Below are positions 38,799-64,000 of a stretch of DNA of 64,000 nt, one piece after another. The position numbers and the translations under genes were made by a program. Under the pieces are notes generated by a model. That model did no database searches. It saw only the letters and a program-made list of their open reading frames with translations, and was not told where the DNA came from. Position 1 is the stretch's first letter, and every line of letters starts with the position of its first letter. The stretch covers positions 18,786,001-18,850,000 of the forward strand of contig CM022670.1 of assembly GCA_012295275.1 (NCBI GenBank), written 5' to 3'. This stretch comes from Chrysomallon squamiferum (lineage: Eukaryota > Animalia > Mollusca).

Positions 38799-41732
38799 GC
38801 ACACATTCACATACATACATATATAAACAAACACACATATATATATATGAGATAAAAAGAGAAAAAAAATGTGACATTTTCACATTTAAATGCACTCTTT
38901 TCATTGTAATCTACATAAACATCAGTGTTGTACCAGTAACTGCAGATTTTTTAAATTTAATTATTTAATTTCCACTTTTTTCTTTTCTTTTTATTTTTAA
39001 TAGCAAGAAAAAACATCCAAGACAAAAATTTGAATATCCATCTAATGCATATAAAGTAAGTTTAAATTATTGGTTTATTTCTTTATTCTTGTTTGCTTGT
39101 CAAAAAAAACCCATACCATCATATAGTTGTCTTCTTAACTTTTACCTAACTGGACACTCTGAAGCTCACACACTGTTATAAATAGCCAACAGTAACCCTT
39201 CTCAAAAACAAATTTTCACAAATTTTGTGGCAAGGAAGATATGACAGTTAAATTCAAAATACTTCAGGTGAGAAGGCTGCAGAAATGAATGTTCACTAGT
39301 TTCATCAGTGTTGACTAATTATTAACAAAGAAAGAAAAATATGTTTTGACTGTGATATTTAGTGATTTGATTTTTTCTTTAGTTCTGTGTAGTTTTGTAT
39401 TCATGTACCTGTTACCCAGTGTTGTTCTTCTGTAATATTTGTCATTTCATGTTTATTTTTTAATTATTTTAATTATTTAATTTACTTTAATTTACTTTTT
39501 TATTTTATTTTATTATTTTTCAATTATTTTTTGTTTTTTGTTGAGCACATGAGTTTCCTGAAAGTACTTTTTGTGTTTTGACTTGTCTAACCTAATCACT
39601 GAAAATTATATTACTACATTAAGAGATTTTGGGGGGGGGTTGTTTGTTTGTTTGTTCATTTCAAATGTTTATCTTTTTTTAAGGGAGAGAGGAGGGATTG
39701 GGTTTTTACCCCAGTAATATATATATTATTTTTATTTGTAATTTTTAAAAGTCCAAACAATACAATCTACTGGAAAACAAAACTATAAGCTAGAAGCAGC
39801 AAACTTTGATTATCAGTTTAGACAGTAAATTCTTTGTGAATAAATTTGTAATCTTGAGATTTAGTTTTTAATGTACTGAATAAAATTAACATTATCCTTT
39901 ATGTTTAAATCAGAATTTTAGTTTCTTCTTTCCATTTATAATTTACTCATATTTGGACTCTACTGTAGATTAATAATGTTGTCTGAGATCAAAATTATTT
40001 ATTATTTCCAGATGGGGCAATCTCTGATTTAATGTGACAACTTTATTAATAGTTAAATAAGTGTGTGTGTGTGTGTGTGTGTGTGTGTTAGCAATGTTAC
40101 AATTATGCACTTTCCATTGTTCTCAAGTAGCAGTGGACTGGGTGAGGACCATCAAAAATGGCGTGTTGACAGGTTATAAATAGATTTCTAAGAATAAATG
40201 TTTTTTGATGATGTTCTGCACACATTTCTATGCATCCTCGTCTGTTTGAGGGAATGAGGACATGTCAACCAAATGTGCCTTCTGATCAATTGAGAACATT
40301 TGTTTACCTTATTTATAAACTATGTGAATGCTTTTGTTTATAATTTAATTCTACACATAGCAATTTTTCAGTTTTTGTTGATGTTTCCTTTGGCTTCAAC
40401 TAAAAACAAAAATGTTTACACTTTTCTTCTATGCATTTTTGAGGAGGTATAGGCATTTTTGTCAGGTTTTTTATTCAATATGTGGCCAATTAACATAATA
40501 AAAAAAATACGTAAAAATTGTACATTTTTCAGCATCTTCCATTTTCAGGATATTTCAAAAAAATTGGTCTCATTTTGTTTCTTTTTTAAGGCTCTATCCA
40601 ATGAAACAGGACATTTCTTGAGCTGAATTTTAGCTGAATTTTTTTGTAAATTACCTGCATATATTATATTATTTTTTAGTTAATTAACAATACAGAAGAT
40701 TCTAAACAATCAACTGAGGTAAATGTTTTTCTGTTGCTTTCATTTTCATTTTAAAATTACAGAATAAATGGAATGTGATTTATATAAATTACATAATCCC
40801 AAACACATCAGTATAAATATAATTACTTACACTAACTCATTCAGATTCTATATTTATTATTATTTTCTTTTTATCTCTTTTTTTTTTGTGACAACTTGAT
40901 TAATAGTTAAATAATTATGTGTGTGTGTGTATATGAAACATTAGCAATGTCACAATTATGCACTTTATGCTATCTAGACTTTACCAATGATCACTGATAA
41001 TGTCATTCTCAAGCAGCGGACAGGGTGAGGATCATCAAAAATGGCTTGCTGACAGTTTATAAATAGATTTCAAAGAATAAATCTCTTTTGATACTGTTCT
41101 GCACACATTTCTATGCATCCTTGCTTTCAAAATTTAATTTCTTTTAACTGCAATCATCTCCAATATTCTTATGAATAAAAGTTAAAAATTTGCCTTACAA
41201 AGTCAAATAAGTAGGCTTAGCAGATGAGATTTTTAAAAAAAACAAATACACTTTCAACAGATCATTTATTTAACTTTATTTCTGCCAAATTTCATGGAAA
41301 TCTGTAATTGCAATCATGGTTTGTTCAATTATGATAATGGATGTCACTATTTGAGGGAATGAAGACACATAATCCAAATGCTGTTGATCAAGAGCATTTG
41401 TTTACCTTATTAATGTGCACTAATTCTGTCCTCAGCAATTTTTCAGTTTTTGTTGATATTTCCTTTGGCAACTGATTAAATAATTGTTTACACTTCTCTT
41501 TTATACATTTTTAAGGAGATACGGGCATTTTTGTCAGGGTTTTTTACTCAGAGTGTGGCTAATTGACATAATAAAACAATAGGTAAAAACTGATACATTT
41601 TTCAGTGTCCTTCCATTAACAAGATATTTCAGAAAATGTGGTCTCATTTTGTTTTGTTTCTTAAGGCTCTAACCAATGAAACAGGACATTTCCTGATATA
41701 TTTGAACTGAAGTATGTATAATATAATGAAAA

Positions 41733-41763
<31 letters not shown>

Positions 41764-42935
41764 TATATTATTTTATTTTTTAGTTATTTAAGAATACAGA
41801 AGATTCAAAAAAATCAACTGAGGTAAATGTTTTTCTTTTGCTTTCATTTTCATTTTAAAATTACAAAACAATTGGAATGTGATTCATATAAATTATATAA
41901 TCCCAAACATATCAATATATGTGAGCATTAGTTTCGGAACATTAATTGCATTCACTTAATATTTATAATAAGTATATAAAAATATGTATATTTGAACTGA
42001 AGTATGTATAATATAATGAAAATAATATTATATATATATATATATATATATTATATTATTTTATTTTTTAGTTATTTAAGAATACAGAAGATTCAGAAAA
42101 ATCAACTGAGGTAAATGTTTTTCTGTTGCTTTCATTTTCATTTTATAATTACAGAATAAATAATCCCAAACACATCAGTATAAATATAATTACTTAAACT
42201 AACTCATTCAGATTCTATATTTATTATTATTTTCTTTTTTTCTCTTTTTTTTTTGTTTTTTTTTCATATTTACGTGAGCATTAGTTTTGGAACATTAATT
42301 ACATACACTTAATATTTATAATAAGCATATAAAAATATGTATATCTAAATTGTTTTCCTAGATATGTGTGTGACTGTGGTTGTGTGCCACTGAATGAAAA
42401 GTTGATGAAAAGACATTTATCAAAAAAATGTATATATAATAACACTTCTATTAATATTTAAAATATGTTGGGGGGGTTGGTATGTGTTGATTAAATAGTT
42501 ATTCCTTTGATTTTTTTGTTTTTATTGATTTTTTTGTTGTTTTTTGTTGAACAGCGGTTATGTGATGAACATTCTAGGACAGATGACAAAGACAACGAGA
42601 AACCAGCAATGAAAGTCAGTGGACATAAAAGCAGCCCCAGTGACAATAACATGAAAAGCACTTTAAATTTATCATGTAATTCAGTTTTTAAATCAGAAAT
42701 GACAGCAGCTTCAGAAAGGACAGCAGCTTCAGAAACAACGTTAAATAGTGGAATACATTCCTCTGATAAGAGATTACGAGGACCTGGAGAGTTTGATATC
42801 CAAGACAGTAGCATGTCTGGAACATGCTGTGATCTGAACAGTGGTGTATCTCATCACTATGAGATGACTGTTGTAAATAAACTTGACACTAGCTGTGAAG
42901 CTTGTCCAAGTTCTCAGGAAACTTTGTTAGTTTAA
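32149..42935 (+). CDS. gp130/IL6ST/domeless-like class I cytokine receptor family type-I membrane protein, copy 1 (~748 aa: SP-Ig-4xFnIII-TM-tail)
   Basis: Exons 32149-32212 (signal peptide MDLINIILLFGIFTVIVA), 32808-33089 (Ig: LWCTV..W..LEIRNATKNDNGIYKC), 33507-33648 (EPPAVP..NCTNFNMEYMTC), 33867-34030 (C..C..FEVEAANEIG..INPLNV), 34583-34728 (QPRPV..LNLSWTSP), 35500-35662 (LISGVLYKVCIKSKP..GTGYFSLS), 36075-36157 (VPKSGP..LYWK), 36754-36973, 37251-37405 (LKVTW..VHWC), 37627-37810 (WRIAVS..SSGLIW; weak donor), 38617-38710 (TM VIIICVSIALFILVPVFICFL), 39004-39055 (CKKKHPR), 40680-40718, 41784-41822, 42072-42110, 42555-42935. All phases are consistent (2247 nt). Confidence 0.85.
34280..34582. repeat. 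Degenerate intronic minisatellite (attatttttg.atatttcagtagttt..att..tttag.cattca.tgga..taggattt) ending at the exon-5 acceptor
   Basis: Several imperfect units; more units at 58470-58827 in copy 2. Confidence 0.7.
40040..42345 (+). repeat. Nested intragenic tandem duplications carrying three 39-nt microexons
   Basis: ~40040-40800 resembles ~40895-41915; ~41697-41985 resembles ~41987-42345. Each block contains ttttag|TTA.TTAA.AATACAGAAGATTC...AATCAACTGAG|gtaaat. Confidence 0.85.
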
Positions 42936-44306: not shown

Positions 44307-47196
44307 CATGTATATGTATATATCATTTTATAATGTTTATATATGTATATACATACATATTGTTATTTGACACTGCATAAGTCTATGTTATGGGAGTGTG
44401 TCCTTCTGCATAGTTCGGTTATTTATCTACACCTGCTTCTGAATAGTCCAGAAGAGACTGGGAACAGTGTGTTCACTGAAAATCTAAAACTGAAAAAAAT
44501 TAACATGTTAATCAGAGCAAGCTGTTGTGAAGCACTTGTGTTCACCTTTAAAGACAACATTTATAATTGTTATCCTGGAATAATTTTTATTGGAAATTAA
44601 CAAACCAAGGGAAATAATCGAGTCTCGATTTTTAACATAATTATATAACAGTTCATAAGGGGCCTGACAATCAGACGTGCTTCACAACAGCTTGCTCTGA
44701 CACGTTAATTTTTTTCCATCAGATCGAATAATAAATACTTAAATATAGGATTTAATAAAATAATAAAAAAAAAATTAGTTAAAAAGTTGTTACTGAAATT
44801 TAAAAATAGCCATTAATTGAAAAACTGAACTATGTGTTTTTCATTTTCACTTTTTGATTTCATCTTCTTCCCAAAGTGTCTTTTCAAAAATGGAAATGCG
44901 GTTGATATGAAAAGGCACAAAACCTGTGCAACCGTATGTAATTACAAAATAAAGGTTCATTGATAAATTAAATTATGCATTGCCATACCACTATCCATTT
45001 TAAAAGTATTATATTATATAAAAAAAAAAAATATTTTTAAAAATCATCAAACCTTTTCTCTCGTGTAAATATCCGAATTTCTCTCAGAATAAATAATTTC
45101 AAAGATCACCTTAAATTTAAAATAAACGATTGTAGACTGTGTTTATAATTATTTATAATTATTTTTAAGTAACGTAACCATTGTTCTAGTCTGAAAAATA
45201 ATGAAACTTTGATAAAATAATGACTCTTCACAAGTGTATTTTGAATCTTTATCAACCAATTTTACCATTCCCGCATCATCACCATAAAATCTATCGTATT
45301 CTCATATGAACAAAAACAAAGTCTCTTAAATATTACCAAGATAAAATATATATTTTTTTTATCTAAGAACGTCTCAAAACAAATGTATACAATGACGTAT
45401 ATACACACAAATCACGTTCCATCTAAGAAAAAAAAACATATAATGGATTTGTAATAGTAAAAATATTTTCTAAATCAATACGAATACGAATTCTTTTCTT
45501 TTTAAATTATTATTATTAGTAGTAGTAATATTATTATTATTTATTTTTTTTTTTTTTTTTTTTTTTATTATTGCCTAAGAAAATACAGAGTACAGATGAT
45601 ATAAAGATTTTTAAATTTAAATAACAACAACAATATACATACTGAATTATTAAAATATATACATAAAATACAGTCGTAAAATTCTGTCTGTTTTTTTTTT
45701 TTTTTAACTTTCAGACGAGCTGATGGTATTAGTAGTATTTGTAGAAGTATATGAAAATAAATTTTGGAACTATTTTTTCAGAAAAAAAATGCGAATTACT
45801 CAAAAAAATTAATGCACAACTGAAAAATGTTACTGAAACTCTCTCTATAAAAAAAAAAAAAAAAAACATTGTAAAGAAAACAAATTTTGTTCTCCTAATC
45901 ATTATTCTCTGTAGTTAAAAAAAAGTTATTAAATCTGAATTCATGGTTTCATTCTAATTAATAAAATGACTGACTGTTTTTATAATTACATTAATGTAAA
46001 AAGTCCTAATTCAGATGAAATTATGGAAACATTCATTATCTGTATAAATAATAATTGATCCGTAATTTCTTTTTTCTTTTAAGGAATAATTTTGTTGATT
46101 AACATAAAACCAGTGGGCACTTTCCCGTTCCAGCCAGTGTTATTCGACTGTTGTATTAGATGCCGCTCTATATTTTTTTCTTGTTAGTGAAAAGATGTGG
46201 ATAAAAGATTAAGTGTGGTTAATTTGAAAGAGCAGACAATGATATGGCGACAGCAAATTTAACAGTCTCGAACATACTTATCTGCTTTTTCGTAATCAGT
46301 GAAAAGCTTTATAAAAAGTATACATATATACGTCAGTCATAATAATAATCATCATCGTCATCATTTCCAATTAAGCAACACAAATAGGCAATAATTTACA
46401 CACTCGCAAGAATAATAACAATTAAAAATATGATTTTAATACTCGTAACGGCAACTGTCGTTGAAGCAAGAAAAGAAAATGTCTATTGAACCAATTATCG
46501 TATGATTTGTAATATAATATAACATTCCCAGTAAGAAATGAATCAAAATATCCTTATATGAATGGGTTTGGTTTAAATGCACCGTAACCACCACAAGCAG
46601 AATGTAACAAAATATTTATTATATTTAACTAACTTTGTTTCAAGTTTACCGAATATCTTTTCTTTTCTTTGTATATGTCTCTGTTTGCATGTTTGTACTT
46701 GTGCATCTACAAAAAGTCATCATAATTAAGTGCATATTTATCTAGTCTAATTTATTTATATATTACAAATTTTATATGATAGTTATTGATGAACTCCGAG
46801 AATTTCGAATAAATGGCTGCTGACCTGATATTTCAGTTTTGATTTTGTTATTCATTAACTAACTTATATTTCATAATGAATAATAAAATTGACCAAAAAA
46901 GTTAGGCTGTATATCTCTAAAGAATATGACATAATGTTTCAATTATCAGTTAATTTACAGATATACATGTAGATTTGTGAACTTGTTACTTTGAAAGATG
47001 TTTCTGTTTAATTTAGGTTTTTGTTGACATTACTATCAGAATATATAGAAATATCATTAAAAAGTATATCCTGTTAGTAGGATTTAAACAATGAAAATAA
47101 TATTTCTCAGTCTTTTTTCATCAAGTTTTTTCATTGTTCATTTTTCTTACATCATCCCTTCTAAAATGCTTCACAAAAAGAGAAGGAAAAAAGGAA

Positions 47197-47505
47197 TCAA
47201 TTCATTCGACCATTGTTTCTTAATACAACCCGTGGAACGCTGTAAAACCCAAACTGGGTAGCGCGAAGTCCGTTTGCTTCTGTACTTCTTGGAACCATCA
47301 TGTTTCCTGCTAGACTGGAAGACTGATCGTCGAATTTGATGAATCGGAACAATGGCGCTTTTGTTATGTACATTCCCAAATGGATGCTGGTTGAAATCAT
47401 CGGAGAACGTTTCTTGCAGTTCGTCCACTATCCTTCCATTGACCTCTGTGCGCCACATCGTCCACAGATGTAGGTTTCTCATTGGATCAAAAGTCTTGCT
47501 TAAGT
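47197..47505 (-). pseudogene. Truncated, frameshifted copy of the 8782-9186 orphan ORF
   Basis: NLSKTFDPMRNLHLWTMWRT.VNGRIVDELQETFSDD and YITKAPLFRFIKFD are split across two frames (1-nt insertion near 47371). The acceptor and start are lost by deletion of the ~9090-9430 equivalent. Confidence 0.8.
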
Positions 47506-48978
47506 TGTGAAGGGAATGGGGGAAGGCCAGATGGGATGCTAGGTGAACAGATGGATTGATGGGTTGCTTTTTGAGATACGTAAATGGATAGTTGAATGGC
47601 GTGTGCATGTACGAATCTATATTTGAATGTATGTATGTATCTATATATTTATGTATGTATGCATCTATGTATGTATGTATGCATGTATGTAAATGTGCGG
47701 GCGTATGTGTGTATGTGTGTGAGAAAGAGTGTTTGTTACTATAGTTGTTATTGAATTATATCAATTTTGAATTTCTGAAGGAAGTAAAGTTATGAGTCAC
47801 TGGTTATGCTTTATATTAAGAATATTATTATTCAACATTTCAGTGTTTATTTCAAATATGGTAAGTTAATATTGCCAAGTTTTATCTAATTCATTTTTTC
47901 TTTCGTTATTTTTATTATTATTATTTTTTTGTTTGTTGTTGGTTTTTTTGTTGGTTTTTTGGCTGTTGGTTTTTTCAAGCAATGAATTCATTATAATATA
48001 TTCTGGCGTATAATTCATTCATGTATAATCAGTACATGCACAGACCCACTAATCTTTGGCACGTCGGCCTGAAGTTAAATAGCACGGCGCCTTACTGCCA
48101 TGTCATATCAAATCAGAACTTTAAATCAACCAGATTTTGTAACAACACACATTTTAATAACATTGTCTTCACAGAAGTAGCAACAACTGAATGAGTCTAT
48201 GCAACAGAGTGGCGAAGGCTTCATATTAAGGTCAGCCTATTTCGGTTACATTTTTATTTTACGATGACTGAGCAATCCCTTTTGATTGCTACGTGTTTTT
48301 ATCTTTCCATCAACGTCTTTAATATAACGCAAACAACGACAGTCAGAAATAAAGAAATACTTTCATCTAAGTATTAAAATAATTTTACTTGTTCTATACC
48401 AAATGGCGTTAATTAAAAAAAATCAAAATAAATGATTTTATTCTTATTGCTTCTTTGTTACTGTCTTTTATTTTATTATTTTCGTTGATTTATTTAAATA
48501 ATATTAATAAATTTATACTGTGATGGATAAATGGGAACAAATAATCCTTTTATATTATTAAAGCACATTTTCAATCTGATCTACAGTTTGTAAAAACATA
48601 TAAAAATCAGAAAATTAGATAATTTTTAAAAGCAATCTAGAGAAATATCAAACTGAGATTCAAAATTTATATTATAAACATTTTAACAATTCAGAAATAA
48701 TACTCTCAAATATGCTTCCAACATAAAGTAATACAAAGCATTAAAGGTATGTTAGTTACCTTAAACTTTGAAATTAGATGGAAGTGATAACTTCAAAGAT
48801 TAATATGACCTAACAGCAGCAATTTAAAGTGACTGAAATCACCACTCCCCTCAAATATACAGCAAATGAATCAGTCTTAATGAAGTAAGGATGTTTGAAT
48901 AGATTATATTAGTAATTAAATATATTATTTGTTTTTGATGTTATATTTTTAAAGATTTATAAAGCATTACAGAGATGG

Positions 48979-49031
<53 letters not shown>

Positions 49032-49760
49032 CATACTTTAATTATTTATTTTTATTCATATATGTATATATTTTTTTTTTTTTTAAATTTCATGCTTAAT
49101 GTAAAATACTTAGTTACGTACTACATAATATAAAACCTATAAATATATATTTTGAAATATTCCACCATTATTATTTTTGCTTCCAATACAAGGTTAAATA
49201 AAAATATTTCGACTGGAATGTTGTCACAGAATGCTTTAAAACGAACACTGATGTAATAACTTCTTTTTCTTGCATCGATTAATACGTAATTAGAACACAC
49301 TTCGTGTATGAAGTCGGAATCAAAATAAGAAAATGACGTAATGTAAAAATGCCTGGAGAACACCTATTCCTCGGAAATTTGAATAATACCCATGTTTAGA
49401 AAAACAATAAATATTACAGCATACAATGTTATTGTTACGGAAAGCATTCATTAAATGCAACTTGGTGTTTACGAACACGTAAGTTCTATATATATATTTA
49501 GTAGTCTATTGTATTCAAATGGGGAATATATTTTCTCATGTATCAGGAAGATATTAATGAAAAAACGTACTGGATAGCTGACAAGTGTATATTTAGCACT
49601 ATATCCGAAATGAGTGCCAGATGATTATATTATTTTATCGACCGCTGAATATGAGATTATTATATTTTGTTACCGGTGTTTTGTAACCAAGTTAATGGTT
49701 CTCTTTGAATTTTTTTTTCTTTACTGGTTTCGTATCCAGGTTATAAACTTGGCAATGTTG

Positions 49761-49839
<79 letters not shown>

Positions 49840-50498
49840 TTTTATTATATTTTATTTTATTTTATTTTATTTTTTATTTTTTATTGTTATTATTATCCCC
49901 CCATCTTAATATTCAGTTTAACAACAGAAGTGCAATTGTTATAATTGATGATCACCCATTTCTCTGTGGACCTGTTTGGTTTAATGTTTCTTCTAGTTTT
50001 ATGAAAATGTTCAGTAATCTGTCTCCAAGAATGTGACAGTGTCAGTCCACGGATTTGAAGGGGTAAAATGTTACATTTTAAGCAACTGTTGTGATATTGG
50101 TTTGAAAACTGAAACGACAAGTTTCAACTTACTTTATTTCTGTGCGCCTATACAGTGTCCTATACCTCTTCGCACCAACCCGTCTTTCTTACAGGCGTCA
50201 TTCTGTGATTTGGCTATACCTGAGAACTTTTTTTTTTTTTTTTTTTTTGTAATTACACTGCCATATACCAAATATAGTCATTAATCTTACCTAGGTGGGC
50301 ACCTTATCTTTGAATTACTATTAGACAAAACTGTTTACAAAACAAAGTCAAGAGTTCATTGCCATGTCTGTAAACACGCTAGGACAGGACAATAGTCTTC
50401 TACCTGTAGATATTAGCAACACAGGCTTCAGACAAACATACGATTTAATTTTATAAGTTGGACCATCAGGTGAGAAACCAGAACTTTATTTTATCATT

Positions 50499-50833
50499 AT
50501 GGCCAAAACTAGGAAACCATCCGTTAAGCCAACAGAACAAATCTGTGATCATCTATGAGAGATGAATCAATTCGAAAATATCTTCTAGACTTTTGAGTAC
50601 TGTGCAATAAATGTTCTTTCATGAGTCTAACCGTAGCAGAGGAAATCGAAGACCGCATTAAACATTTATAATACCACCGTTTCAAAATTGTTGTGGTCGT
50701 TGTTATCGGTGAGAAGAAGAATCAGGGTGTCCTGGTATCAAGCAGGTGTGCATGAGAACTTTGCAACGTGTACCTATCAAAATGATCCATATTTTGCAGG
50801 GCGCAAGTGTTTGATGTATTATACATGGAATAA
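50499..50833 (+). pseudogene. Pseudogene of Tctex1-domain gene B
   Basis: ATG at 50499, TGC>TGA at codon 20 (50556), ~230-bp internal deletion (27325-27550 equivalent), TGG>TGA near 50753 and further frameshifting indels. Confidence 0.92.
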
Positions 50834-52186
50834 TGTGACTGGTTAGAAGTTAATACACAAAATGACAGTTTCATCAGATGTACGTTACATGTAGCTCAGT
50901 GGTTCGAAAAACAACAACAGCATAAAAAAAGAAAATGTATGTTAGAGCCATTAAAGAGCTAAAAACAAATCATTCTTTAACTTAAAAAAAAAAAAAAAAG
51001 ACATATTTTTTTATTTGTTGTGTTAATGTATTAGCCAGTATTCTTGATTTTTAGGTTTATAATAAATTTTTGTAATGACATGGGTTAATTCATTTACTAT
51101 TGAATTTTTAAAAGGTAGCAAGAAGTGAAAGTTTGTTGACAATACAGCAGTAATTTCAAGAATTATTGTACATAATAATTTTATGTTATAGCCTGAGTTT
51201 GTATCCACATAATGCATTTTGATTTAAGCATTTCAGAAGAAATAAAATAAAACCTAAACATGCTGTGTTTATATACTCTTTCCATTGTAAATCTTTTCAG
51301 ACTGTTGTGGTTATTCTTCAGGAACTAAATTAACGTTTCATCAGATCTTCTTGAAATATCTATTTAACAGATATTCTGTGTTATCAGTGGATACATACAT
51401 ATTCTGTTATCGCAGTGCTATTTTAATATTCACCAACTGAGCTTTGGTATTCTAGCAGAGTTTTGTGTCCTTAACTGTTGTCTGTGTGCAGAAAATGTTA
51501 ATCTTTTTAATGTGAACTTGCTGCATGATAATAAAACTGTAATAAATGTATCTATGTTTCTGTATATGTATGCGTTATAATGTATGTATTTATGTATCTA
51601 TGTATACATGTATGGGTGGGTCTGTTTGTATGTATGGGTGTTGTGTTGTATATGTGTGTCTACATGTATGTATGTATGTACGTGTAACTAACTACCTGTG
51701 CTCGTGTGTATGTGTAAGTACCTGTGCTCATGTGTATGTGTAAGTGTGTGTATTAGTGTTTGTATAACGTGTTTGATAGTTTTCTTTAGTAATATGCAGA
51801 ACACACAAATTATCAGTCTAGTTCCTGTACTAAGCAGTCATTGTTGTCTTCACATCAGCAATAAAATAATACTAGCCCTGTTAGGATGCACCATAACGGT
51901 ATATTGTATTTCTGTGTCACATGGAATGTACGAAAGCACACTCTCTATATTATCTATTATATACATAGGCCTATATAGTGAATACATATTATTTTTCCTT
52001 CGTGATGAATTTGGTTTATGTATATGGCAGAAACATTATTTGTAGTATTTAATGTTCAAAAATATTCAAGCCTAGAGAATATTCTAAATAATCATAATAA
52101 ACTTTTCAGCATTGCTTGATACTTTTGATCAGTTGGAATCGGAGTAAGATTTACAACTGAACTGTTTCCTTTAAAGACCGATCTAA

Positions 52187-52228
<42 letters not shown>

Positions 52229-52257
52229 GTTCTCTTAACACAAATAAGGAAATAAGC

Positions 52258-52445
52258 AGTAAGTTATAATTCTCTGACCTAATATTAGACTAATAGTGCA
52301 TCCTAACCGGGCGCGTACTACGCGAGCGACGCAAGCGTTATTATTTTTTTTTTTTAAACAAACCATTGTTTTCAGCTGGTGCATCCTAACTGCACGCGTA
52401 CGGCACGACAGTTTTAGCGTTCGCGTGCAGTTAGGATACAGCATT
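52258..52445. mobile_element. Short GC-rich hairpin-forming insertion (MITE fragment) specific to copy 2
   Basis: gcatcctaactgcacgcg...cgcgtgcagttaggatac inverted arms; the gtgcatcctaac motif recurs at ~52296 and inverted at ~51880; absent near 29428 in copy 1. Confidence 0.5.
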
Positions 52446-53557
52446 ACATGAACACCCATAGTTAAATTTCTCAGAAGTTAGTTACTTATATATTTTATTA
52501 TTTGTATTAACCCAATATTGTTCTTCGAACAAGGCTGAAATCTGTATTTAACGGAGCATAAAGCACATCTTGAATGACGTCGTATATATTTTTTTCTGTT
52601 TCTTTAACTTAGCAAATTGGTCATAACTAAAAAAGCCACGGACTGCAATTTAGGTTATACCTACTTGTAGAATCCGCATGTAGCTTTTTTTTTTTTTTTT
52701 TCTTCTTATTATGATATTTAATATTGCTGTACTATTTAGGTACAGTTTTTGAAAATGTCAAAAACATATTTATTATAAACCTAAATGGCTTATTTTACTA
52801 CAGTTTAACATCTCGTAATTAACCTGTATGCATCATTAAAGTAAGTAAATATGTTAACCATTCATTTCTACAAATATTCCTAACAGTATGTATTAATTAA
52901 ATATCTACTGTTGGTTAATAGCAATCCGATTTCTGAAATCACCTAACAATTAACAATAATTAGCGAGAGACAAAAGGAATTTTTGTCAGCTACGCTCTGC
53001 TGACTCAGGGAAATATATTTTGCCATATCTTTGTTTAAGTCGGAAGCAGGGAACAAATGGTTATCCTGTTTCTGTAAGCACTGTTTGATTTGTTGATCAG
53101 TTTGATTTAACCTGTATATGCTCCATAGAGAGTTAACCTGTTAGGGAAAATTAAAAGAATTAAGAATTATAGTATTTCATTTATCGCCAACTCCCACGTC
53201 CTCAACCACTAAATAATAAGTATACATGTGTAAAATATATAATTATCTTTTAATATAAATATTGTGTTTTGTTTTGGTGTTCATAATGCATACTTGATAT
53301 CTGTAGCATATACAAATATATGTATCTATTATAATCACCCGTTACAATTTGTTAATTACACAGTCAGCGGGTTCACGAAAGGATGCAATCCCTAGACAAG
53401 GAACGAGCCATATTTTAATAGGGTCGTTAGCACTTGAAAGCTAACTTCTCCATGACAATTAAGAACTATTTTATTTGGATGTATAGCGACGACGAAGTAC
53501 TACCATCGCGGCATGATGATAAATAAAACAGTTGATTCCATTTAGTTCTTGTTGTTG

Positions 53558-53616
<59 letters not shown>

Positions 53617-53702
53617 GAACGCATTGTTCATGTGCACTGTTTAATAATAAACCCAAGCTTTCTTTGTACTTGTTCAAACTGTGGTTTGAGAAATGACATA
53701 CT

Positions 53703-53713
53703 ACGCATGCGCA
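53703..53713. promoter_or_regulatory. NRF1/ewg-like motif upstream of receptor copy 2
   Basis: tacgcatgcgcag, conserved with 29824 although the flanks diverge. Confidence 0.5.
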
Positions 53714-53933
53714 GAAAAAAAAAAAAAAACACACTTTAACTGGCACAGCAACCGAAACCAAAACAACTGCTGAATACCATTTATCTTTATAATGTTTTTA
53801 GATTTGTAAAATTTAATACATATTGCTAAAAATGTTCAGATTACTTTCAGTTATCATTTTCTGTTTTAGTTTCTGTTTTGGTTTTCCGAAATGGCCAGAA
53901 CATCAGAACAACGCAGTAACTCTGAGTAAGTTG

Positions 53934-53984
<51 letters not shown>

Positions 53985-56222
53985 AAGTAATTGATAACCC
54001 GATGAAGGTATGACTATATCAGTATCACTCATTCTTTTACGTAATCGTGTACAGAGTACATGTTTATTTATATTACTAATGATTCTAGTAATAGCTTTAA
54101 AAAAGAAACAACCTATTACAGCTAATGCAGGGTACTTTTCACAGAATTAATACAATTATTGAATTAATAAATTGTTAATAGTTATCTTTTTGTTGATTAA
54201 CAGGTGTGTCACGTCATATAGCATGACAAATATGTTATTATTATTTGTTATTTTTTCATATTGGTTTAAAATTCATTTCTTCTTTGTTACATATATTTTA
54301 TTATTTTATTTAAATAAATATGAAAAATCTTATCCTTTTTTAAAAATATATTTGTCATTTGGTTTGAAAATACGATATAATGCAAGTGAATATATAGGCC
54401 TAATAGATAAAAAAAAAAAAAAAAAAAAAACCCCTTGAATGTGTATTTATGTTTGTTTATGTGCATTAATTAATGTTAATTAATCAAAATATTATATATA
54501 AAATAATGTCTAGCATCTTATTCAAATATTGTTTACATTATTTTCAGATTATTGGTAACCAGCTAGTAATTAAAAAAAATAAAAAATAAATTAAAAATTA
54601 AAAATAATGTTATCAGTATATTATCATTTGATATTTCTGAAACAAGACATACTACTTAAAACATGAAAGGAGTTATTTCCTAAATTCATGGAAACCTGGA
54701 AGTGTCAAGAAACTTGATATCTGCATATGTACCAAACAAAGATGAGTTTATTGGTGAGTATATTATTAAATAATCAGTTAACTGCTTTTCTGATAGGAGA
54801 AAACAAAATCTGATATATTATTTTTAATTTAAAACAAAATTTCACAGAGAGAGAGAGACATATTTTGAAAATCATTATTTGCAGTAACCTTGTTTACCAA
54901 AATCAGTTTTCTTTTGGTGTGCAGAAGTGAGTTGTTATTATTGATGTTGTTTGTGTTGTATTATTTTTCATTAGTTAAATACTTCTAAACTATAAAATAG
55001 TGTAATATGAAGTTTTTACTTTTCAAATTTGTTATCTTTTAAGTTTTCTATGAAGTTTGTATTAGTCAGTTCAATGTTATGTATCAAAATATCTGGTTAA
55101 TTAAAAAAAAAAAAAAAAATGTATGTATCAAAACAGAAATTAGTTTTATATAGACTATTCATAGAGTAAGTATGTATCCTATGGTGAGACATTTTAAATT
55201 CCTTATATTGCATAATATATATATATATATATCTAATCAGTTCTAGAATATTTTTACTTTTTACATTTCTGTAAACACAACATATTTATAAATCCTGAGA
55301 AATGCTATCCTCCATGTATCCATGAATTTTTTTTGTGAGTTTCATACTTAATTATTAACAAAGATTGGTACTAAGATGTAAAGAAAATACAGTTAGTCAG
55401 AAGAGTAAATGAGTATAATTATGTCCTATTTGAATCTGGTATATCTGTACAACAAAAATAAAAACAACCTTACTATTATTCGTGTCTGTTGTTTGAATGG
55501 GCATTATTTCCAAATATTCTAGTATTGTACTGTTATTTTCTTCTGTTCCTGTTTACAAGTGTTGAAAAAAACCACACCAAAAAAACCACCTATATATATA
55601 TATGTATATATTTATATATGGAAAACACACCATCCAAGGAAACTGAAAGAGGGCATTTTTTTTTAAAGTTATGATGTATTGTTGTTATTTTCAATGGAAC
55701 AAGTATGCATAAGTTTCTGTGCCTATTTAGATGTTCCTTTTTTCTTTCTTTTTTTCTTTTAATAAAAGTTATAACTGTCATGTCAATTTAATATTGTTCT
55801 CACTGATTTCTGAAGTAAAATATGTCCCATTCATTTATAATGTTCCTGTTTCCTTTTTCTTCAGGAAATAAATTCTCAAAGAAATTTTTGTATTGATAAC
55901 TAGTTCTTAGTAATATCTATTTATAAATGATAAATAAAATAAATGTATACATCAGTTTGATGACATCTATCTGGTCTGTATAATTGACAAGTATGGTTTT
56001 TAACTAGTTAAACTGGTGTTAAAAATTAGATATTAATTCATTATTATTAAATATAATTTATCTATTAATATTATTTTATTTGCAATTGTTTATTTTTTAT
56101 TTCCTTATAAAGCAGTTGGATAAAAATTAATTAAACATTTTTTTTTATTTTTTATTTTATTTTATTGTTATTCTTTCATTCATTAATTATTTTTCAGTCT
56201 TGTTTCTTCCCACAGGAAATCT

Positions 56223-56633
56223 ATGGATTTAATTAACATTATTTTACTGTTTGGAATTTTTACAGTAATTGTTGCTAGACGACCAAGTAAGTATATTTCA
56301 TTTTGTTTTTATTCATTTTCTTTTATAAAACTGATTTTCCTTTTGTAAAATTTTAGTATAAGCAGTGTTGTTGTTGTTGTTGTTTTATTCCTTTTTTTCT
56401 TACTTTTTTTTAGTATATAATTTTATTTTATTTCATTTCATCTGCTGCTTTTTGTTTTAATTTAATTATTTTGTTAGTTATAAAATTACATTAATATGTT
56501 TAAAACAAGAATTTTAAAAATGTTAAATAAAATTAAAAATTTATGTTAAATAATGATTATAATTTTCTTTTTTGTTGTTGAATAGTTTTTTGTGTTAATT
56601 TTTGTTTAATAATTTCAGTTACATATATTATTT

Positions 56634-56673
<40 letters not shown>

Positions 56674-56892
56674 CATAAAAAAGAAAAGACCAAACTCAAA
56701 TAAAATTATCATTAGATGATAGAATAAACCAAGAAGATAAAATTTAGTGACACACACACACTCATTGTACATTATAATAAAGTTTACAGAGATTTTTTTT
56801 GAATGACATCTTATTTAGCTCTATGAATATGTTTTAAATACTGTCAGTTTTATTTATTTTTAAATTTATTAATTTTATGATTTATATATATA

Positions 56893-56926
<34 letters not shown>

Positions 56927-59900
56927 ATTATTTGTTTGTTTATTCATTGTTGTTTTTATGAATTGAACAGAAATTCTTCCTGATGATGATAAGCAATTTA
57001 AGAGAGTTGGTAAAAATGCACATCTTTGGTGTACAGTGGAAGGGCACTTCAAAAATCCAAAAAAAGTATTTAGGAGACTTACATTTTTGTGGGAAAATGA
57101 GATTATAAAAAATTCCTTCAGAAAGAATGTAACCAAAGTTAATGGTACGACTATACAGCTGGAAATAAGGAATGCCACTAAAAATGACAATGGCATTTAT
57201 ATGTGCTGCCTTCTGAAAAAACAAAGTGATAATAACTGCAAAAAAGTGTCAACTGCAGAACTTGTCTTTGGTGGTAATATTAATAGTTATTAAAAAATAT
57301 TTATAAAAAAACCCAAAACATTATACATTCAAAAATAGTGTCTGAATATGTATGTTTGTGTTTGTTTCTGCATGCATATGTATGTATAAGTGTATGTTTG
57401 TGTGAGACAGTGAGTGCATATTTCTCCACGTATATATACTTTTATTTCTGTGTGTTTTTAATGTCACGGTGTGTAAGTGTATGTTGTATGTTTGTGTTTG
57501 TGTGTGTCATGTTTTACATGATAATAAATGTTTTAATTTGTTATTTTAATAGAACACAATTTTATTTATTATGAAATTTAATTAACATTCCAGCTAAACA
57601 TTTTGTAGATGTTCAGTGTCAAACTTTTCAGTGCCTTGTGTTGCAAATGTTTTTTTGTTCATTGTAGAGCCACCTGCAGTTCCAGTACTAAGTCCTGCAA
57701 ACTGTACGAATTTCAACATGGAAAGCATGACCTGTCTCATTGACAAGGTGAAAACTGAAGAAGATTTGGGCAATGTCCCTACAAGCTGGGATGTATCGTT
57801 TAGATATTAGTAAGTAATATGTTGAATTTTATATACAAATTAAATAATTTTTAAGCAAAGTTGATTTTGGTACAGTTTTAAAATGTAGAATGTAATATTT
57901 TAATATTAAGTAAATAATGTTGTATATTTAATAATATTTGATCCATATTTATTGCTTTATTTTGTTTGAAAACTTAGTATTTGATGAGATTTAAATAAAA
58001 ATATACTGAATGTTTTGTTTGTTTATTTTTTTCTAACAAACTTATAGTAATGGTAGTCGTATAAGGTGTGATGAAACAAAACCAGAGAAGAAAATTTTGA
58101 TTTGTAATATAACAAGTTTTTGGTCAAAGACTAATCATAAATTTGAAGTTGAAGCTGCAAACCTAATAGGAAATGCCACAAAAAGGATTACAATTAACCC
58201 CTTGAATGTCAGTAAGTATTTGAAAAAGTTGTATCCAATCCCCAACTTTTTTTCATTTATGTTGTTCTGAATACATTACAGTACATTTTAGCATTTTTGT
58301 AACATTTACATTACAGGTTAAATGGATATTTGGTATATGATTTTCAGTTAATTTCAGATGTTATACAATAATATTATACACCATATAATAAATTTTGTCT
58401 GTGTTTGCCATTAGGGATGTGAAATAAATCTATAGGACTTGAGCATGCTATATTATACAATACCGTTTCGAACATTAAATTACTATTTTTTAATATTTCA
58501 GTAATTGTATTTTAGTCATTCACTGGACTTTGGCAATTAGGATTTACATAGTACAAATCTGAATATTAAATTATTATTTTTGCATATTTCAGTAGTTTTA
58601 ATTTATTTAGTCATTCATTGCACATAGGATTTATTATTATTTGGGTATATTTCAGTAGTTTTGATTTATTTAGTTATTCATTGGATATAGGATTTATTAT
58701 TTTTGTATATTTCAGTAGTTTAATCTTAATTTAGTAATTCATTGGATATAGGATTTATGGAGTACAAGTTTGAATATTAAATTATTATTTTTGTATTTTT
58801 CAAAAGTTTTATTTGCTTTATTTTCAGTACAACCTGGGGCAGTTAAACAATTTCAAGTCGATTCCAGTCATTCTGGCTTGAACCTGAGTTGGACTTCACC
58901 TCTTGACTGCACTGATAAACATTTATTATTTATTATTTCATACACATCTAAATGGGAAAAATCAAGTTCAAATGTAAGTGAATAGTGTTTGTGCTTTATT
59001 TATTTTAATTTTATTTATTTTATAATTTATATACAGTGGAACCTCGGGTTATGAAGCAGGAAATAATTTAAATGTAAACAATCCATTCCAGCCCCCAGAA
59101 TAATTTTATTTTCATTGTTTTCAGAGCTTTTTACATGAATAAATACAGAATTTTGTTAAATTAACCATATAGATAGAAAACCATTAAATTAAATACCGAG
59201 ATTACTGTGCATTTATTTTAATGCAACTTACAATGTGGTGGAGAGTCAATGTCATGGGGGAGGGGACGGTGTTGGTGAAGAGGAAGAAGTTATCGTTTGG
59301 AAAGCAAGTCTCCTTCCATAGTAACACTGGGCTCTGCTACTTCAGCGGTATGTTTTTGCTTTGCTATCTGTTAAGGAAAAAATCAAGAGAAATTTGCTTC
59401 TCTCTTTGTCGGAGAATGTTATCATTCATTAAGGTCACTGCCCTGTTTGCCACAAGTTTGTTTGGGTGATGGTGTCCAATAAGATCTTCAATATCAGCTC
59501 ACTTATTGTAAATATCTTTTATTCTAGTATTAGAAACCTCAGTCCTTTCCTCCTTATCGTCAGACAATTGCTCATCCTTTAATGCCTTGAGTTGTTCACT
59601 CTGTCTACCTTGAATATCTCTAAGCTTTTCTCTACTATACATCCTGGCCAAAGTTTTCTCCAGGCAGAGTACAAAGTGCAGGTTGAAGTGATATTTCCAG
59701 AAGTCTCTGAGGGTCAATTCAGTATCATTTGTGATCTGAAAACACCTCAGAAAAAGAGCCTTTGTGTACAGTTTCTTGAGTTTTGAGATCACTTGTTGAA
59801 GCAAAGGAGTGGAAATGAGAGGCAGGAATTTGACCTTAATAAAGTTATACTTGATGACCAGGTCCTCCTCCAAATCTGGGGGCATGTTCAGGAGTATTAT

Positions 59901-62900
59901 TTATATCAAGAGACATCTAAGAGGCATATTGTTTTTTCCTCCTCTTCACACTTCGGGCAGACACTTTAGTCAGCCATTCCATGAAGATAAGTCTCGTCAC
60001 CCATACCTTCTCATTACCTCTCCACATCACAGGGAGTTTGTTTTCCTGGGTGATAAATGTCCCCTTTGGCATTTTCTTCCAGAAGAAACCTATCTCATCA
60101 CAGTTAAAGATAAAGTTATCAAATTTCACCTTAAATGTTGGAACTTGCAGCTTCCCCATATCTAATAACTGTGAATACCCATTCTTTTTTTAAACTTCTC
60201 AAACCATCATCTACTGGCTTTAAACTCATCACTTTTAGCAAAAGCCTAGCCTTTTCACATATTCTTGCCTCACTAACACTATCTCCAGTAAGTTGCTTTT
60301 CATTGATCCAAATTAAGATAAGCTTTTCAACTTCATCTAAAAGTTTGGACCTTTGCCTTGTTCATTTATCACACTTTTGGCCACATTGGCTGATTTGATT
60401 ACCTTGTTTTACTTGAGGATGGTCCAAATCGTCAATTTCGCCATTCTGTAATCCCTAGTAATGTCAGACACACGATAGCCACTCTCATATTTCTTTCTTA
60501 ACCTCTTCTGTGATATGTTTATACTTTCTACCAGCATTATCGCTTTCATTTTTTATATTCTTGGGCACCATATTGGATAGAATATAATAAAAGAATATAG
60601 ACATAAAAGCAGCAACAATTTAAAAATTGCAAGTGCACAATCTCAATGCAAAAGCTATTGAGCTACAACTGCATATTGAAGACTAAAGGCCCTAATTTAT
60701 GATACATATTTGCTATAGGGAATGCCTATAATCCTTACTTTTACCTCAGTTTTGACGTAAGCATCTGTTGGCATCTTAACGAGATGTTGATGTCAAAACC
60801 AACATCAAAAGAAAGCTTGTTGTGGCGCATCACTGTAGTTCGTAACTCAGAACATCAGTCATAAACTGCTCAAGAACACAGTTCATAATCCAATTTATTA
60901 GTGCTTCAAGGTGTTCATAACCCAAGGTTCCATTGTATTTAAAAAATGTTATATACATACATAAATACATGTGTGTGTGTGGAGTTTGTACTGGTTTTGT
61001 TTTGGGGGGGCGATAATTTAATAAATAAACAGATTAGATATTCAGTAAAGATGCCAATACTAATTTTTTGTTTATTGACTCATTGTTATGATAAATGAAT
61101 TATTTGCATGAATGACGATAAGAAACAGATATGTTATCAAGTTATTCTATTTTTTCCCATCTTAAGTATATCCTTGTACTGACATTAGGCAAATCTGAAA
61201 TTTTGGCTTATTGCAATAATATTTAATGAATATTATTTCTCAGTATTGTGAAAATGTTCTATTACTCATTTATAAATGGTTAATAACAGGTAACTGTCTC
61301 GGTTGTTTTTGTGTTGAAACAGCACTAAAAGTCACAGGATTTTTGCTCCTATTCATTTTCATATTGCATTACAGACTGATATTTAAATGTAGTTTACCTT
61401 TTATCATAAGCATCTTTATTATGTCAACACCTATTTTATCAAAATCAGTTTATTCTTAATGGTTCATTTCCATTCCAGCCATCACTCTACTATTAAATGT
61501 GTCAAAGCTATAGTATATTTATCTGTTGGTTGTTAAAGATTAGCATTTAAAACGCCACTTTTGTGTGAATGTTCACTTCTTTTGTTTATATTTGTTATTT
61601 AAAAATTTTTTAAAAAGGACCTGATTTTTTTTTTTTTTTTTTTTTTAAATATTTATTGTCAAGTTTCATTTTAATATTTCTATTTAATCTTATCACATCC
61701 AGGTGACTGTAAATTGCACTAATGAAACTTTTTTGTCATCAATACTGCCAAGAGAGAGCTTGATTTCTGGTGTGCTGTACAAAGTGTGCATTAAGTCGAA
61801 ACCATTTGATGGGACAGGCTATTTTAGTCTATCTGTCTGCAAGTCTGTAACTACTTCTGTTGGAGGTAAGATGTTAAAGGAAACATTTTTGAGAAATTTC
61901 CAGGAATGCTTATTCTCCTTATTATTATTGTTCTTGTCCAAAAACAAAATCATTTAAAATAATTTTTTTAATTTTACTTCTTTTTTGATATTTTTGTTAT
62001 TAATATTGATTCATATATATTTTTTTATTTACTTTATTTTTCTTTCTTTCGTAAACTGCAGTAAAGAAATTGGTATTTAAAAAAAATATATAAATCTGGT
62101 GACAGATGAATGTGAATAAAAATGAAAAATAAAAAAAGATCTTTTTAAATTAAATATTAATTGCTTTAGAAAGAGGGTGATTATAAAAACCTGTATTATA
62201 TATAAATATAATATTATTAGTACATAAAATATTTACTTAAACATTTCAATCAGAAATAAATTTTAAAAAGTTGTATCGTATTTTGAAGTTCCTAAAAGTG
62301 GACCCATTGTACATCCGTGGTTCTACAGCTTAGATTGCCGACATTATCCTGTCTTAGCACTTTATTGGAAGGTAAATATATTTTGTTTACTCTTACAAAA
62401 AATGAATAGTAAAAATTATTGGAGAAATACTGATATTTGGAAAAATATGTTTGAAATTTAAAATTTACAATAATCCTAATGTAAATAATCAAGTGATCTT
62501 AAAAAACAATATTCAAAATGTGGTTTTATTGTTTTTCCTAAAGATGAGTTTTCATTTGAACTTCATTTTACTTCATTATCATATAAACTTATTAATGAGT
62601 TAATTCTGCAAGTTCTGTTTTAGAGCTTATATAGATACTATTCATGTATGGATATTCTAATGCACAATTTTCTGCCTTTCCATAAATAATTGTATAATAT
62701 TTTGTTTTTGCTGTGAATATTATTGAAAAGTAAAAACAAATTATCAGGGACATTTACATGCAAATCCAATAATGCAAACAGTTTTCTGTGGTTGAATGTT
62801 TGGCAACACTAGAATTGCTAAAACATGAATAACAAAAATTCTTTAATTTCGTAATTCCTTAATTTATTTATTTATTTATTTACTTACTTACTTACTTTAT

Positions 62901-63708
62901 CTTCTTCTTCTTATAATTATTATTATTATTATTTATTATTACTTTTTTTTAATTATTTATTTCTAGGAAATACCATTACGTCAAAGAGGAAGCAAAAACT
63001 TGAAAAATTACAATATTTTCATTGGATCTCAGGAGCAATATGTAAATGGAACAGACGTTTCTGTTATTATCAGTTACACTGAGTTATGTTCAGGTGGATA
63101 CAGAACAGCTTTCATTCAAGCAGAAACATCTGCTGGAGCTTCTGATATTACTTCTATTAAAATATTTTCTCCAAACAAAGGTATGTGATAATACTTTATT
63201 AATTTCTATATATTAATCTTTAAGAAAACTTAGCATGTACTTTGGTTTAACTTCATTACTTATTTGTATTTTCAGAATATTTTTGTTCTTTGTATCTGTT
63301 GTATATATATATATTTTTTTTTTTTTTTTTTTTAAATGGAAATCTGGGTATGATTCAGTTTAATATGATTTCTAAATTTGGTATAATTCTTCTTATTATT
63401 ATTTTTTTTTTTATTATTATTTTTTTTTTAGTTCCTGCAAAACCATACAGTGTTCAGAAAATTATGAAAAATTCAAAACTTAAAGTAACTTGGAAGACAG
63501 AAAAAAACACCCATCCACCTGATGTTATACGAGTTCACTGGTGTTATGGATATTACTGGAAGAAAACAGATTTAGTCCATTGTCAGGTTAAAAAAAAGTT
63601 TTCTTTAAAAAATGATGTAATTAAAAACTAAAATTATTTTAAATAAAAATCATATATAACTATATTTTCAGTATGGAAACACAGTTATGTTAAATATTTA
63701 ATAAAAAA

Positions 63709-63760
<52 letters not shown>

Positions 63761-64000
63761 TATTATTTTTATTATTATTTTTAATTAACTTAAAATTAAA
63801 CATATCATTTAAAAAATACTTCAAAAATATCAAGGAAATAAAATTATATCATCTTTAGAATATTGTGTACATAACTGCATTTAATATTTAATTTTTTATT
63901 TATTTCAGAACGAAATTGCTGAAATTGTTGTTTCAAACACAGATGAATTCATGATTCACAGACGTTTCTCTGGCAATCCTATCAAATGTGCAAATTGTGA
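56223..64000 (+). CDS. gp130/domeless-like receptor, copy 2 (3' partial; first ten coding exons, frame intact)
   Basis: Exons 56223-56286, 56971-57273, 57668-57809, 58048-58211, 58828-58973, 61703-61865, 62289-62371, 62967-63180, 63432-63586, 63909->64000. Phases match copy 1; length changes are in-frame only (+21 nt in the Ig exon, -6 nt in exon 8); no stops seen. Confidence 0.85.
59034..60935 (-). mobile_element. Tigger/pogo-family DNA transposon (defective) in intron 5 of receptor copy 2
   Basis: TIRs ta|CAGTGGAACCTCGGGTTATGAA and TTCATAACCCAAGGTTCCATTG|ta (2 mismatches in 22 bp), TA target duplication; absent from copy-1 intron 34729-35499. Confidence 0.92.
59499..60571 (-). pseudogene. 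Fragmented Tigger (TIGD1-like) DDE_1 transposase
   Basis: FNCDEIGFFWKKMPKGTFITQE, LPVMWRGNEKVWVTRLIFMEW and VKFLPLISTPLLQ-QVISKLKKLYTKALF..TLRDFWKYHFN in different frames, with stops and deletions; likely start ATGGTGCCCAAG at 60571. Confidence 0.88.

What the first reader, a model, noticed from the sequence alone, without database searches (positions are those of the whole stretch)
56971..57273. Ig-domain divergence concentrated in the CDR1- and CDR3-equivalent loops
Seen: the core RRLTFLWENE(V/I)IKNSFRKNVTKVNGTTIQLEIRNATKNDNGIY differs at one residue between copies. The loop after the first Cys is rewritten (CTVEEDLTDRR vs CTVEGHFKNPKKVFRR, +5 aa, acidic to basic). So is the loop after the second Cys (CCLLRKQRENDCTNEAEL vs CCLLKKQSDNNCKKVSTAEL, +2 aa, extra Cys pair kept). 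Known: these are the BC and FG loops, the ligand-contacting loops of Ig V-type folds, and gp130 D1 binds cytokine site III. Inference: a shift in ligand specificity or pathogen-driven selection.
Basis: partly seen in the sequence, partly recalled or inferred. Interest (0 to 1): 0.8.

Follow-up and report, generated by a model that had tools for sequence, protein, structure and literature searches.

The report
Duplicated snail receptor with remodelled tip
This genome, likely a snail's, holds two neighbouring, spliced copies of a gene for a cytokine-receptor-like protein, and the upstream copy, not the one first flagged, appears to have shortened its outermost loops and made them more acidic, so the two copies likely no longer bind their unknown partner in the same way.

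Summary
Exon 56971-57273 (copy B) and exon 32808-33089 (copy A) are first (Ig) domains of a tandemly duplicated gp130-like receptor. 12 of 20 aligned loop codons differ, all non-synonymously, against 6 of 74 elsewhere in the exon; both indels lie there.

The interpretation needs three corrections.
(1) Direction: the only full-length relative (Gigantopelta aegis) has long, basic loops like B, so A is likely the derived copy (shorter, more acidic).
(2) The domain is I-set-like, not V-type, and the second indel lies in strand G of the model, about where gp130 has its site-3 tyrosine (inferred register).
(3) There is no hypervariability. Four of four runs laid carry both FG-region types, identical to the window's copies, and no third type.

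Loop divergence (20%) beats introns (8.1%, p=0.003) but only marginally beats non-coding DNA beside indels (11.7%, p=0.04-0.07). An FN3 exon is about as divergent as the whole Ig exon. Best reading: changed partner binding in copy A after duplication; relaxed constraint is a close rival. No ligand is known, and the tail lacks a canonical JAK box.

The parts
56971..57273 (+). Copy B exon 2: N-terminal Ig (I-set-like) domain, ancestral-like long basic loops
   Evidence: RNA contigs end at both exon borders
57036..57071 (+). Copy B BC loop region (model residues 22-33): 5 substitutions plus 15 nt absent from copy A
57216..57254 (+). Copy B end of strand F, FG loop and first half of strand G (residues 82-94): 7 substitutions plus 6 nt absent from copy A (best single gap 57249-57254; exact place ambiguous by a few codons)
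32808..33089 (+). Copy A exon 2: Ig domain with shortened, more acidic loops (likely the derived state)
32149..42935 (+). Copy A whole gene, predicted 720-749 aa. Signal exon 32149-32212; Ig; CHR-like exons 33507-33648, 33867-34030, 34583-34728, 35500-35662; FN3 exons 36075-36157, 36754-36973, 37251-37405, 37627-37801/37810; TM exon 38617-38710; tail exons 39004-39055, one to three 39-nt exons (40680, 41784, 42072), 42555-42935
   Evidence: only exon 1-2 and 2-3 joins seen in RNA, the rest predicted
56223..64000 (+). Copy B gene, cut by the window end in exon 10. Exons 56223-56286, 56971-57273, 57668-57809, 58048-58211, 58828-58973, 61703-61865, 62289-62371, 62967-63180, 63432-63586; frame open through nine exons; tail not visible
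   Evidence: exon 2-3 join in RNA
44386..64000 (.). Second unit of the tandem segmental duplication (copies of about 5957-9857 and 23529-37718), with decayed copies of two neighbouring genes

Best explanation
A tandem duplication made two spliced, in-frame copies of a gp130-like receptor gene, and copy A (32808-33089) then likely remodelled the membrane-distal surface of its Ig domain under selection, so that it would bind the family's unknown ligand or co-receptor differently from copy B. Shown: duplication, open frames, splicing of the Ig exon of both copies, clustering of changes in BC, FG and early G, and the charge difference. Inferred from one outgroup: copy A is the derived copy. Inferred by analogy with gp130: this surface is the site-3 binding surface, with the 2-residue loss near the place of gp130 Y116. 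Untested: any ligand, any change in affinity, and JAK/STAT signalling.
For: Loops: 12 non-synonymous and 0 synonymous changes, pN 0.24 against pS 0.078 over all nine exons and 0.081 in introns (p=0.0014 and 0.003). The core is conserved (pN 0.01, pS 0.11), so it is under purifying selection and not recently converted. Polarity: substitutions where G. aegis equals B vs A are 7:1 in the Ig exon and 7:11 elsewhere (p=0.036), and both indels are losses in A. Charge: BC net -3 in A, +3 in B, +2 in the outgroup; FG region 0, +3, +4. A shift of -7 from 12 random non-synonymous changes has P=0.015-0.027 starting from B. The model (pLDDT 86.6) aligns 1..100 to residues 30..123 of 7z0l_A (IL-27 complex; Z 12.2, rmsd 2.3, 91 aligned) and 8qy4_C (IL-11/gp130; Z 11.3), which I take to be gp130 D1. 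Y116 is the site-3 anchor (passages). Both copies are kept: 3 coding indels, all in frame, against about 21 expected from introns, while two co-duplicated neighbours carry stops or a frameshift.
Against: Non-coding DNA within 20 nt of an indel differs at 11.7%, and the loops exceed that only at p=0.04-0.07. 8 of 34 isolated non-coding indels have a flank as diverged as the BC cluster. 12 of 12 changes being non-synonymous has chance 0.10, and the within-loop N vs S test gives p=0.19. The charge test weakens to P=0.03-0.07 starting from A. pN/pS is 0.66 in the other exons too, and exon 8 is as divergent as exon 2. 13 of 25 differing Ig columns match neither copy in the single, distant outgroup. 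The loops are also the less conserved parts between B and the outgroup (5 of 12 and 6 of 15 identical, against 25 of 45 in the core). All regions and the charge test were chosen after seeing the data.
Confidence: 0.45

Rival explanations
1. Relaxed constraint: after duplication the Ig tip of copy A no longer mattered. Two in-frame deletions with clustered neighbouring substitutions drifted in, and copy A may now be a weak binder or a Latran-like dampener.
For: Indel-adjacent rate 11.7% and 8 of 34 similar non-coding clusters; scan test P only 0.04-0.054; gene-wide pN/pS 0.73; a Drosophila neighbour-duplicate of Domeless does not detectably bind ligand (PMC4751595, passages).
Against: The Ig core of A stays conserved (pN 0.01). 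No synonymous change among the 12. Directional acid gain: 5 gains, P=0.002-0.017. Both clusters fall on the surface predicted to bind.
Confidence: 0.35
2. Pathogen- or symbiont-driven arms race on an exposed receptor tip, with ongoing diversification.
For: Non-synonymous excess at an exposed surface. Microbial mimics of site-3 ligands exist for gp130 (viral IL-6; passages).
Against: B-type FG pieces have 0 other letters in 4 of 4 runs, A-type pieces equal the window's copy A, and no third type was seen. The one new letter is in the core, not a loop. Only two copies lie in the window. Limits: contigs drop rare alleles, 4 of 11 listed runs were laid, and no whole genome was held.
Confidence: 0.1
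3. Patchy gene conversion homogenised parts of the two genes, so the loops only look accelerated.
For: Divergence varies along the unit: intron 6 at 3.5% against 7-15% in others, and exons 4, 6 and 7 have no synonymous difference.
Against: The Ig core has pS 0.11 and its flanking introns 7-11%, so it is not converted. The loops exceed, not equal, the unconverted level.
Confidence: 0.07
4. The two copies are alleles of one locus placed in tandem by the assembly.
For: No whole genome was available for a depth check.
Against: Both FG types are present in 4 of 4 runs from 2 studies. Introns differ by 8% with large insertions, and neighbouring genes are decayed in one unit only.
Confidence: 0.03

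Closest known systems
Gigantopelta aegis XP_041360402.1 / LOC121376557 (uncharacterized, 819 aa; P0001)
   Same: Matches the ectodomain exons 2-10 of both copies at roughly 40-60% identity, with the same layout and the same extra Cys pair in the Ig domain.
   Different: Its loops resemble copy B (53% vs 44% in the Ig exon). It has an insertion in D3 and one YxxQ in its tail, which copy A's predicted tail lacks. Its copy number was not checked.
Vertebrate gp130 (IL6ST) and tall class I cytokine receptors (GCSFR, IL12RB2, LEPR, OSMR); CRLF1
   Same: Ig plus cytokine-binding module plus FN3 plus TM. Atlas structure neighbours of P0001 have TM 0.52-0.69. CRLF1 matches at E=3e-4 across Ig-D2-D3. 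The D1 fold matches at Z 12.2.
   Different: Two rather than three membrane-proximal FN3 domains; WSxWS reduced to a Trp-free GYFSLS; no PxxP Box 1 in the predicted tail. No IL-6-type ligand was detected in invertebrates (PMC13203501, passages).
Drosophila Domeless and its neighbour Eye transformer/Latran
   Same: Adjacent duplicate of a class I-type cytokine receptor whose binding diverged (PMC4751595, passages).
   Different: Et/Lat is a short receptor. Here copy A is predicted full length, the copies are about 88% identical, and copy B's tail lies outside the window.
Molluscan 'IL6R' receptors (PMC13203501)
   Same: Described with signal peptide, Ig, IL6R domain, FN3s, TM and tail, and traced to Mollusca (passages).
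   Different: Orthology was not tested here. The main text has no occurrence of 'gastropod' or 'Gigantopelta'.

Membership tests
gp130-type tall class I cytokine receptor | Signal peptide and single transmembrane helix | tested here: met
   Hydrophobic N-terminus and one hydrophobic segment in exon 38617-38710, read from the translation; no predictor was run; copy B's TM is outside the window
gp130-type tall class I cytokine receptor | N-terminal Ig domain | tested here: met
   Pfam ig 25.9-26.5 bits, above cut-off 21.8; Z 12.2, rmsd 2.3, 91 aligned to 7z0l_A 30..123
gp130-type tall class I cytokine receptor | Cytokine-binding module with four Cys in its first FN3 domain (feature recalled) | tested here: met
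   Four Cys in exons 3-4, aligned with those of CRLF1 through a P0001-dominated profile, E=3e-4; the Trp of C-x-W is absent
gp130-type tall class I cytokine receptor | WSxWS motif (recalled) | tested here: inconclusive
   GYFSLS at the expected place, no Trp; GYSSEP in G. aegis
gp130 (IL6ST) proper | Three membrane-proximal FN3 domains, six ectodomains in all (passage) | tested here: not met
   About 220 residues between the motif and the TM, room for two
gp130 (IL6ST) proper | Box 1 PxxP JAK site and YxxQ STAT sites (recalled) | tested here: not met
   No PxxP in the predicted tails of copy A or P0001; no YxxQ in copy A, one in P0001; tail splicing is predicted only
gp130-type tall class I cytokine receptor | Binds a helical cytokine through sites 2 and 3 | not testable with these tools
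   No ligand known
V-set Ig domain with CDR-like loops | V-set profile, C' and C'' strands | tested here: not met
   V-set 22.5-22.8 bits against cut-off 26; I-set 23.7-25.3 against 23.7. The model has a 2-residue C' and no C'' (its alignment was I-set rich). The Atlas's own model of the outgroup domain is nearest to NCAM/fasciclin domains. Some V-set chains tie.
V-set Ig domain with CDR-like loops | Many variants differing in the loops | tested here: not met
   Two loop types only in 4 of 4 runs laid (contigs, rare variants dropped)

The most novel reading that the evidence does not exclude
The duplicates split the two binding jobs of one ancestral homodimeric receptor. Copy A changed its site-3 Ig surface and kept the ancestral cytokine-binding module, while copy B kept the Ig surface and changed the module. 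An invertebrate would then be independently building an asymmetric site-2/site-3 receptor pair like gp130 with LIFR. The only support is the opposite polarity of change: in D1, B is closer to the outgroup at 12 sites and A at 2; in D2+D3 it is 6 and 9 (p=0.02; identities only 7:1 vs 2:5, p=0.04).
Probability: 0.1. Interest if true: 0.7.

Novelty: new member of a known kind. Interest (0 to 1): 0.3.

Why it matters
Molluscan gp130-like receptors have no known IL-6-type ligand (PMC13203501, passages). Two copies about 88% identical that differ mainly by length and charge at one predicted binding surface make a ready matched pair for fishing out the ligand and testing whether invertebrate receptors use a site-3 contact. 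The evolutionary pattern itself, loop-biased and asymmetric divergence after tandem duplication, is common (own knowledge), and the statistics here are marginal. It is a useful lead, not a surprise.

Tried and rejected
No whole genome was held, so copy number elsewhere and copy B's tail are open.

Word-indexed protein searches found nothing for the exon and only P0001 itself for P0001. Polarity therefore rests on one outgroup. In the full HMMER search (48 hits at E<=0.001) only P0001 matched the whole domain strongly; the rest looked like generic Ig repeats and served only to deepen the fold alignment.

The single-sequence model of P0001 failed (pLDDT 33.5) and was not used. phmmer of P0001 against PDB gave 0 hits at E<=0.01. 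Profiles A5 and A6 gave no cytokine receptor at a useful E-value, so site-2 loops could not be mapped. The structure tool returns no coordinates, so co-localisation of the variable residues was not measured. It rests on strand assignment plus the recalled Ig topology (BC and FG at the same end).

Reads were laid only on 56966-57300. Joins beyond exon 3 are predicted. B-type BC-loop pieces were not among the RNA contigs listed, and A-type BC pieces were not listed for X3; a hole proves nothing. Contig depth (A-type higher than B-type in both RNA runs) was not used as expression evidence.

Literature: searches gave no title or abstract start on this gene or on duplicated gastropod gp130-like receptors. 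The G. aegis genome paper's main text has 0 occurrences of cytokine, interleukin, gp130, JAK or immunoglobulin; its supplements were not read and might list the gene. One search gave no paper that I read on indel-flanking mutation, so the control is my own.

Rejected: V-type/CDR reading, acidic-to-basic direction, allelic artefact, conversion as the main cause.

Full report
What is there. The window is AT-rich, microsatellite-rich animal DNA. It holds a tandem segmental duplication: blocks at about 5957-9857 and 23529-37718 recur between 44386 and 64000. Each unit carries a multi-exon gene on the + strand. Copy A runs from 32149 to about 42935 and can be spliced into an open frame of 720-749 aa. 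Copy B starts at 56223, is open through nine exons and is cut by the window end. The finding is exon 2 of copy B, and its partner is exon 2 of copy A. No whole genome was held.

The observation. Lengths (+5, +2), the near-identical core and the extra Cys pair are as described. With the most favourable gap placement, 12 of 20 aligned loop codons differ, each by one non-synonymous base and with no synonymous change. The rest of the exon has 6 of 74, and the other eight exons compared have 40 of 377. The 43-codon core has pN 0.01 and pS 0.11, so it is conserved by selection, not by recent conversion. A scan over all 471 codons gives only P=0.04 and 0.054 for the densest windows. The Ig exon as a whole (18 of 94) is no more divergent than FN3 exon 8 (14 of 71, one indel); pN/pS over nine exons is 0.73.

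Well-aligned intron blocks differ at 265 of 3287 bases, 8.1%. The loops differ at 12 of 60, 20% (p=0.003), so that test is passed. A fairer control, from 8 introns and 6 other paralogous non-coding blocks, is DNA within 20 nt of an indel: 429 of 3659, 11.7%. Against it the loops give p=0.04-0.07, and 8 of 34 isolated 5-30 nt indels have a flank with 5 or more changes in 21 nt, like the BC cluster. The evidence for positive selection from rates alone is therefore marginal.

Identity. A full HMMER search gave 48 hits, of which one, P0001, matched the whole domain strongly. It is Gigantopelta aegis XP_041360402.1, uncharacterized, and it matches ectodomain exons 2-10 of both copies, so the window is likely from a related gastropod (inference). 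The Atlas's model of P0001 is nearest to gp130, GCSFR, IL12RB2, LEPR and OSMR clusters (TM 0.52-0.69). A P0001-dominated profile hits CRLF1 at E=3e-4 with the four Cys aligned. Against strict gp130 membership: two instead of three membrane-proximal FN3 domains, a Trp-free WSxWS equivalent, and no PxxP or YxxQ in copy A's predicted tail. I file it as gp130-like, not as gp130.

Direction of change. The outgroup has long basic loops like copy B. In the Ig exon 10 differing columns match B, 2 match A and 13 match neither; in the other exons it is 7 for B and 11 for A. Counting substitutions only, the ratio is 7:1 against 7:11 (p=0.036), and both indels are losses in A. Net charge of the BC loop is -3 in A, +3 in B and +2 in the outgroup; of the FG region 0, +3 and +4. 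Random non-synonymous changes reach the observed -7 with P=0.015-0.027 from B, or the reverse with P=0.03-0.07 from A (a test chosen after the fact). The flagged exon is thus likely the conservative copy, and the remodelled one is at 32808-33089.

Structure. An AlphaFold2 model of copy B's domain from a 24-sequence alignment has pLDDT 86.6, with strands A' 7-10, B 16-21, C 33-40, D 51-57, E 60-65, F 74-82 and G 89-99, a 2-residue C' and no C''. Pfam favours I-set over V-set. Foldseek's best rows are neurotrimin, titin and NCAM-type domains, and the Atlas's independent model of the outgroup domain agrees. The first stretch is the BC loop. Of the second, three changes are in the FG loop, one ends strand F, and three plus the 2-residue indel lie in the first half of strand G. 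VIA-align ranks 7z0l_A 30..123 (IL-27 complex) at Z 12.2, rmsd 2.3, 91 aligned, tied with NCAM2 Ig1, and 8qy4_C 30..123 at Z 11.3; I take both ranges to be gp130 D1. Two structure papers (passages; 10.1101/2022.06.30.496838; 10.1101/2022.03.08.483525) name gp130 Y116, the N-terminus and the tip of D1 as the site-3 contacts. If strand G aligns without gaps from the C-terminal end (123 to 100), Y116 falls on residue 93, the first codon of the best placement of the 6 nt that copy A lacks. This register is inferred from range ends only.

Other individuals and RNA. Eleven runs were listed. Four (two RNA, two DNA, two studies, all contigs) were laid on 56966-57300, and 18 of 20 pieces were shown. 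All four hold both FG-region types. B-type pieces have no other letter, and A-type pieces carry copy A's letters. For the BC loop, X1 shows both types, X3 the B type and the two RNA runs the A type. RNA contigs stop at 56971 and 57273, with loose ends equal to exon 1 (A type) and exon 3 (B type in both runs, A type in X9), so both copies are spliced. No third loop type appeared; contigs drop rare variants. Both copies are being kept: 3 coding indels, all in frame, against about 21 expected, while the co-duplicated Tctex-1 gene has stops and another neighbour is frameshifted in the second unit.

Mechanism and verdict. Most likely (0.45), copy A's D1 tip was remodelled under selection and binds the unknown ligand or co-receptor differently. 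Close behind (0.35), the tip was released from constraint and indel-linked changes drifted in, perhaps towards a Latran-like dampener (PMC4751595, passages). An arms race (0.10) lacks the expected diversity. The boldest reading left open (0.10) is a split of site-2 and site-3 roles between the copies, resting on opposite polarity in D1 (12:2) and D2-D3 (6:9), p=0.02. Molluscan IL6R-like receptors are in print without an IL-6-type ligand (PMC13203501, passages). Five library searches (listings only) and a term search of the G. aegis genome paper (main text only) showed nothing on this gene. The scan's own index has no look-alike by sequence. Verdict: a real and correctly seen pattern, misread in direction and fold class; a new member of a known kind; interest 0.3.

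Noticed in passing
window 58992-60970: An insertion of about 2 kb in intron 5 of copy B, absent from copy A; a minus-strand frame at 59920-60189 hits Pfam DDE_1 above cut-off. Likely a decayed DNA transposon.
   Followed up: partly
window 40680-40718, 41784-41822, 42072-42110: Three tandem copies of a 39-nt in-frame exon in the tail region of copy A; all have AG..GT borders and keep the frame. Their use is unknown.
   Followed up: partly
window 25486-26037, 27199-27816 and 50457-50830: Two intronless Tctex-1 family genes upstream of copy A; the second unit holds only a remnant with stops.
   Followed up: yes
window 8785-9288 (-) and 47200-47521 (-): An unnamed frame in the first unit whose copy in the second unit is frameshifted; no clear Pfam family.
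   Followed up: partly
window about 19400-22480 (+): Exons of a CAF1-family ribonuclease gene, present once; this part is missing from the second unit.
   Followed up: partly
window 57092 (run X7, A-type contig): One RNA run shows G>T, turning the Trp codon of the Ig C strand into Cys; not seen in the other three runs.
   Followed up: no
window 36754-36973 vs 62967-63180: FN3 exon 8 is as divergent as the Ig exon (14 of 71 residues, one 2-codon indel) but has pS 0.17 and no polarity bias.
   Followed up: partly
window 35159-36530 vs 61355-62747: A stretch of unusually high identity (intron 6 at 3.5%; exons 6-7 with no synonymous change), possibly a gene-conversion tract.
   Followed up: no
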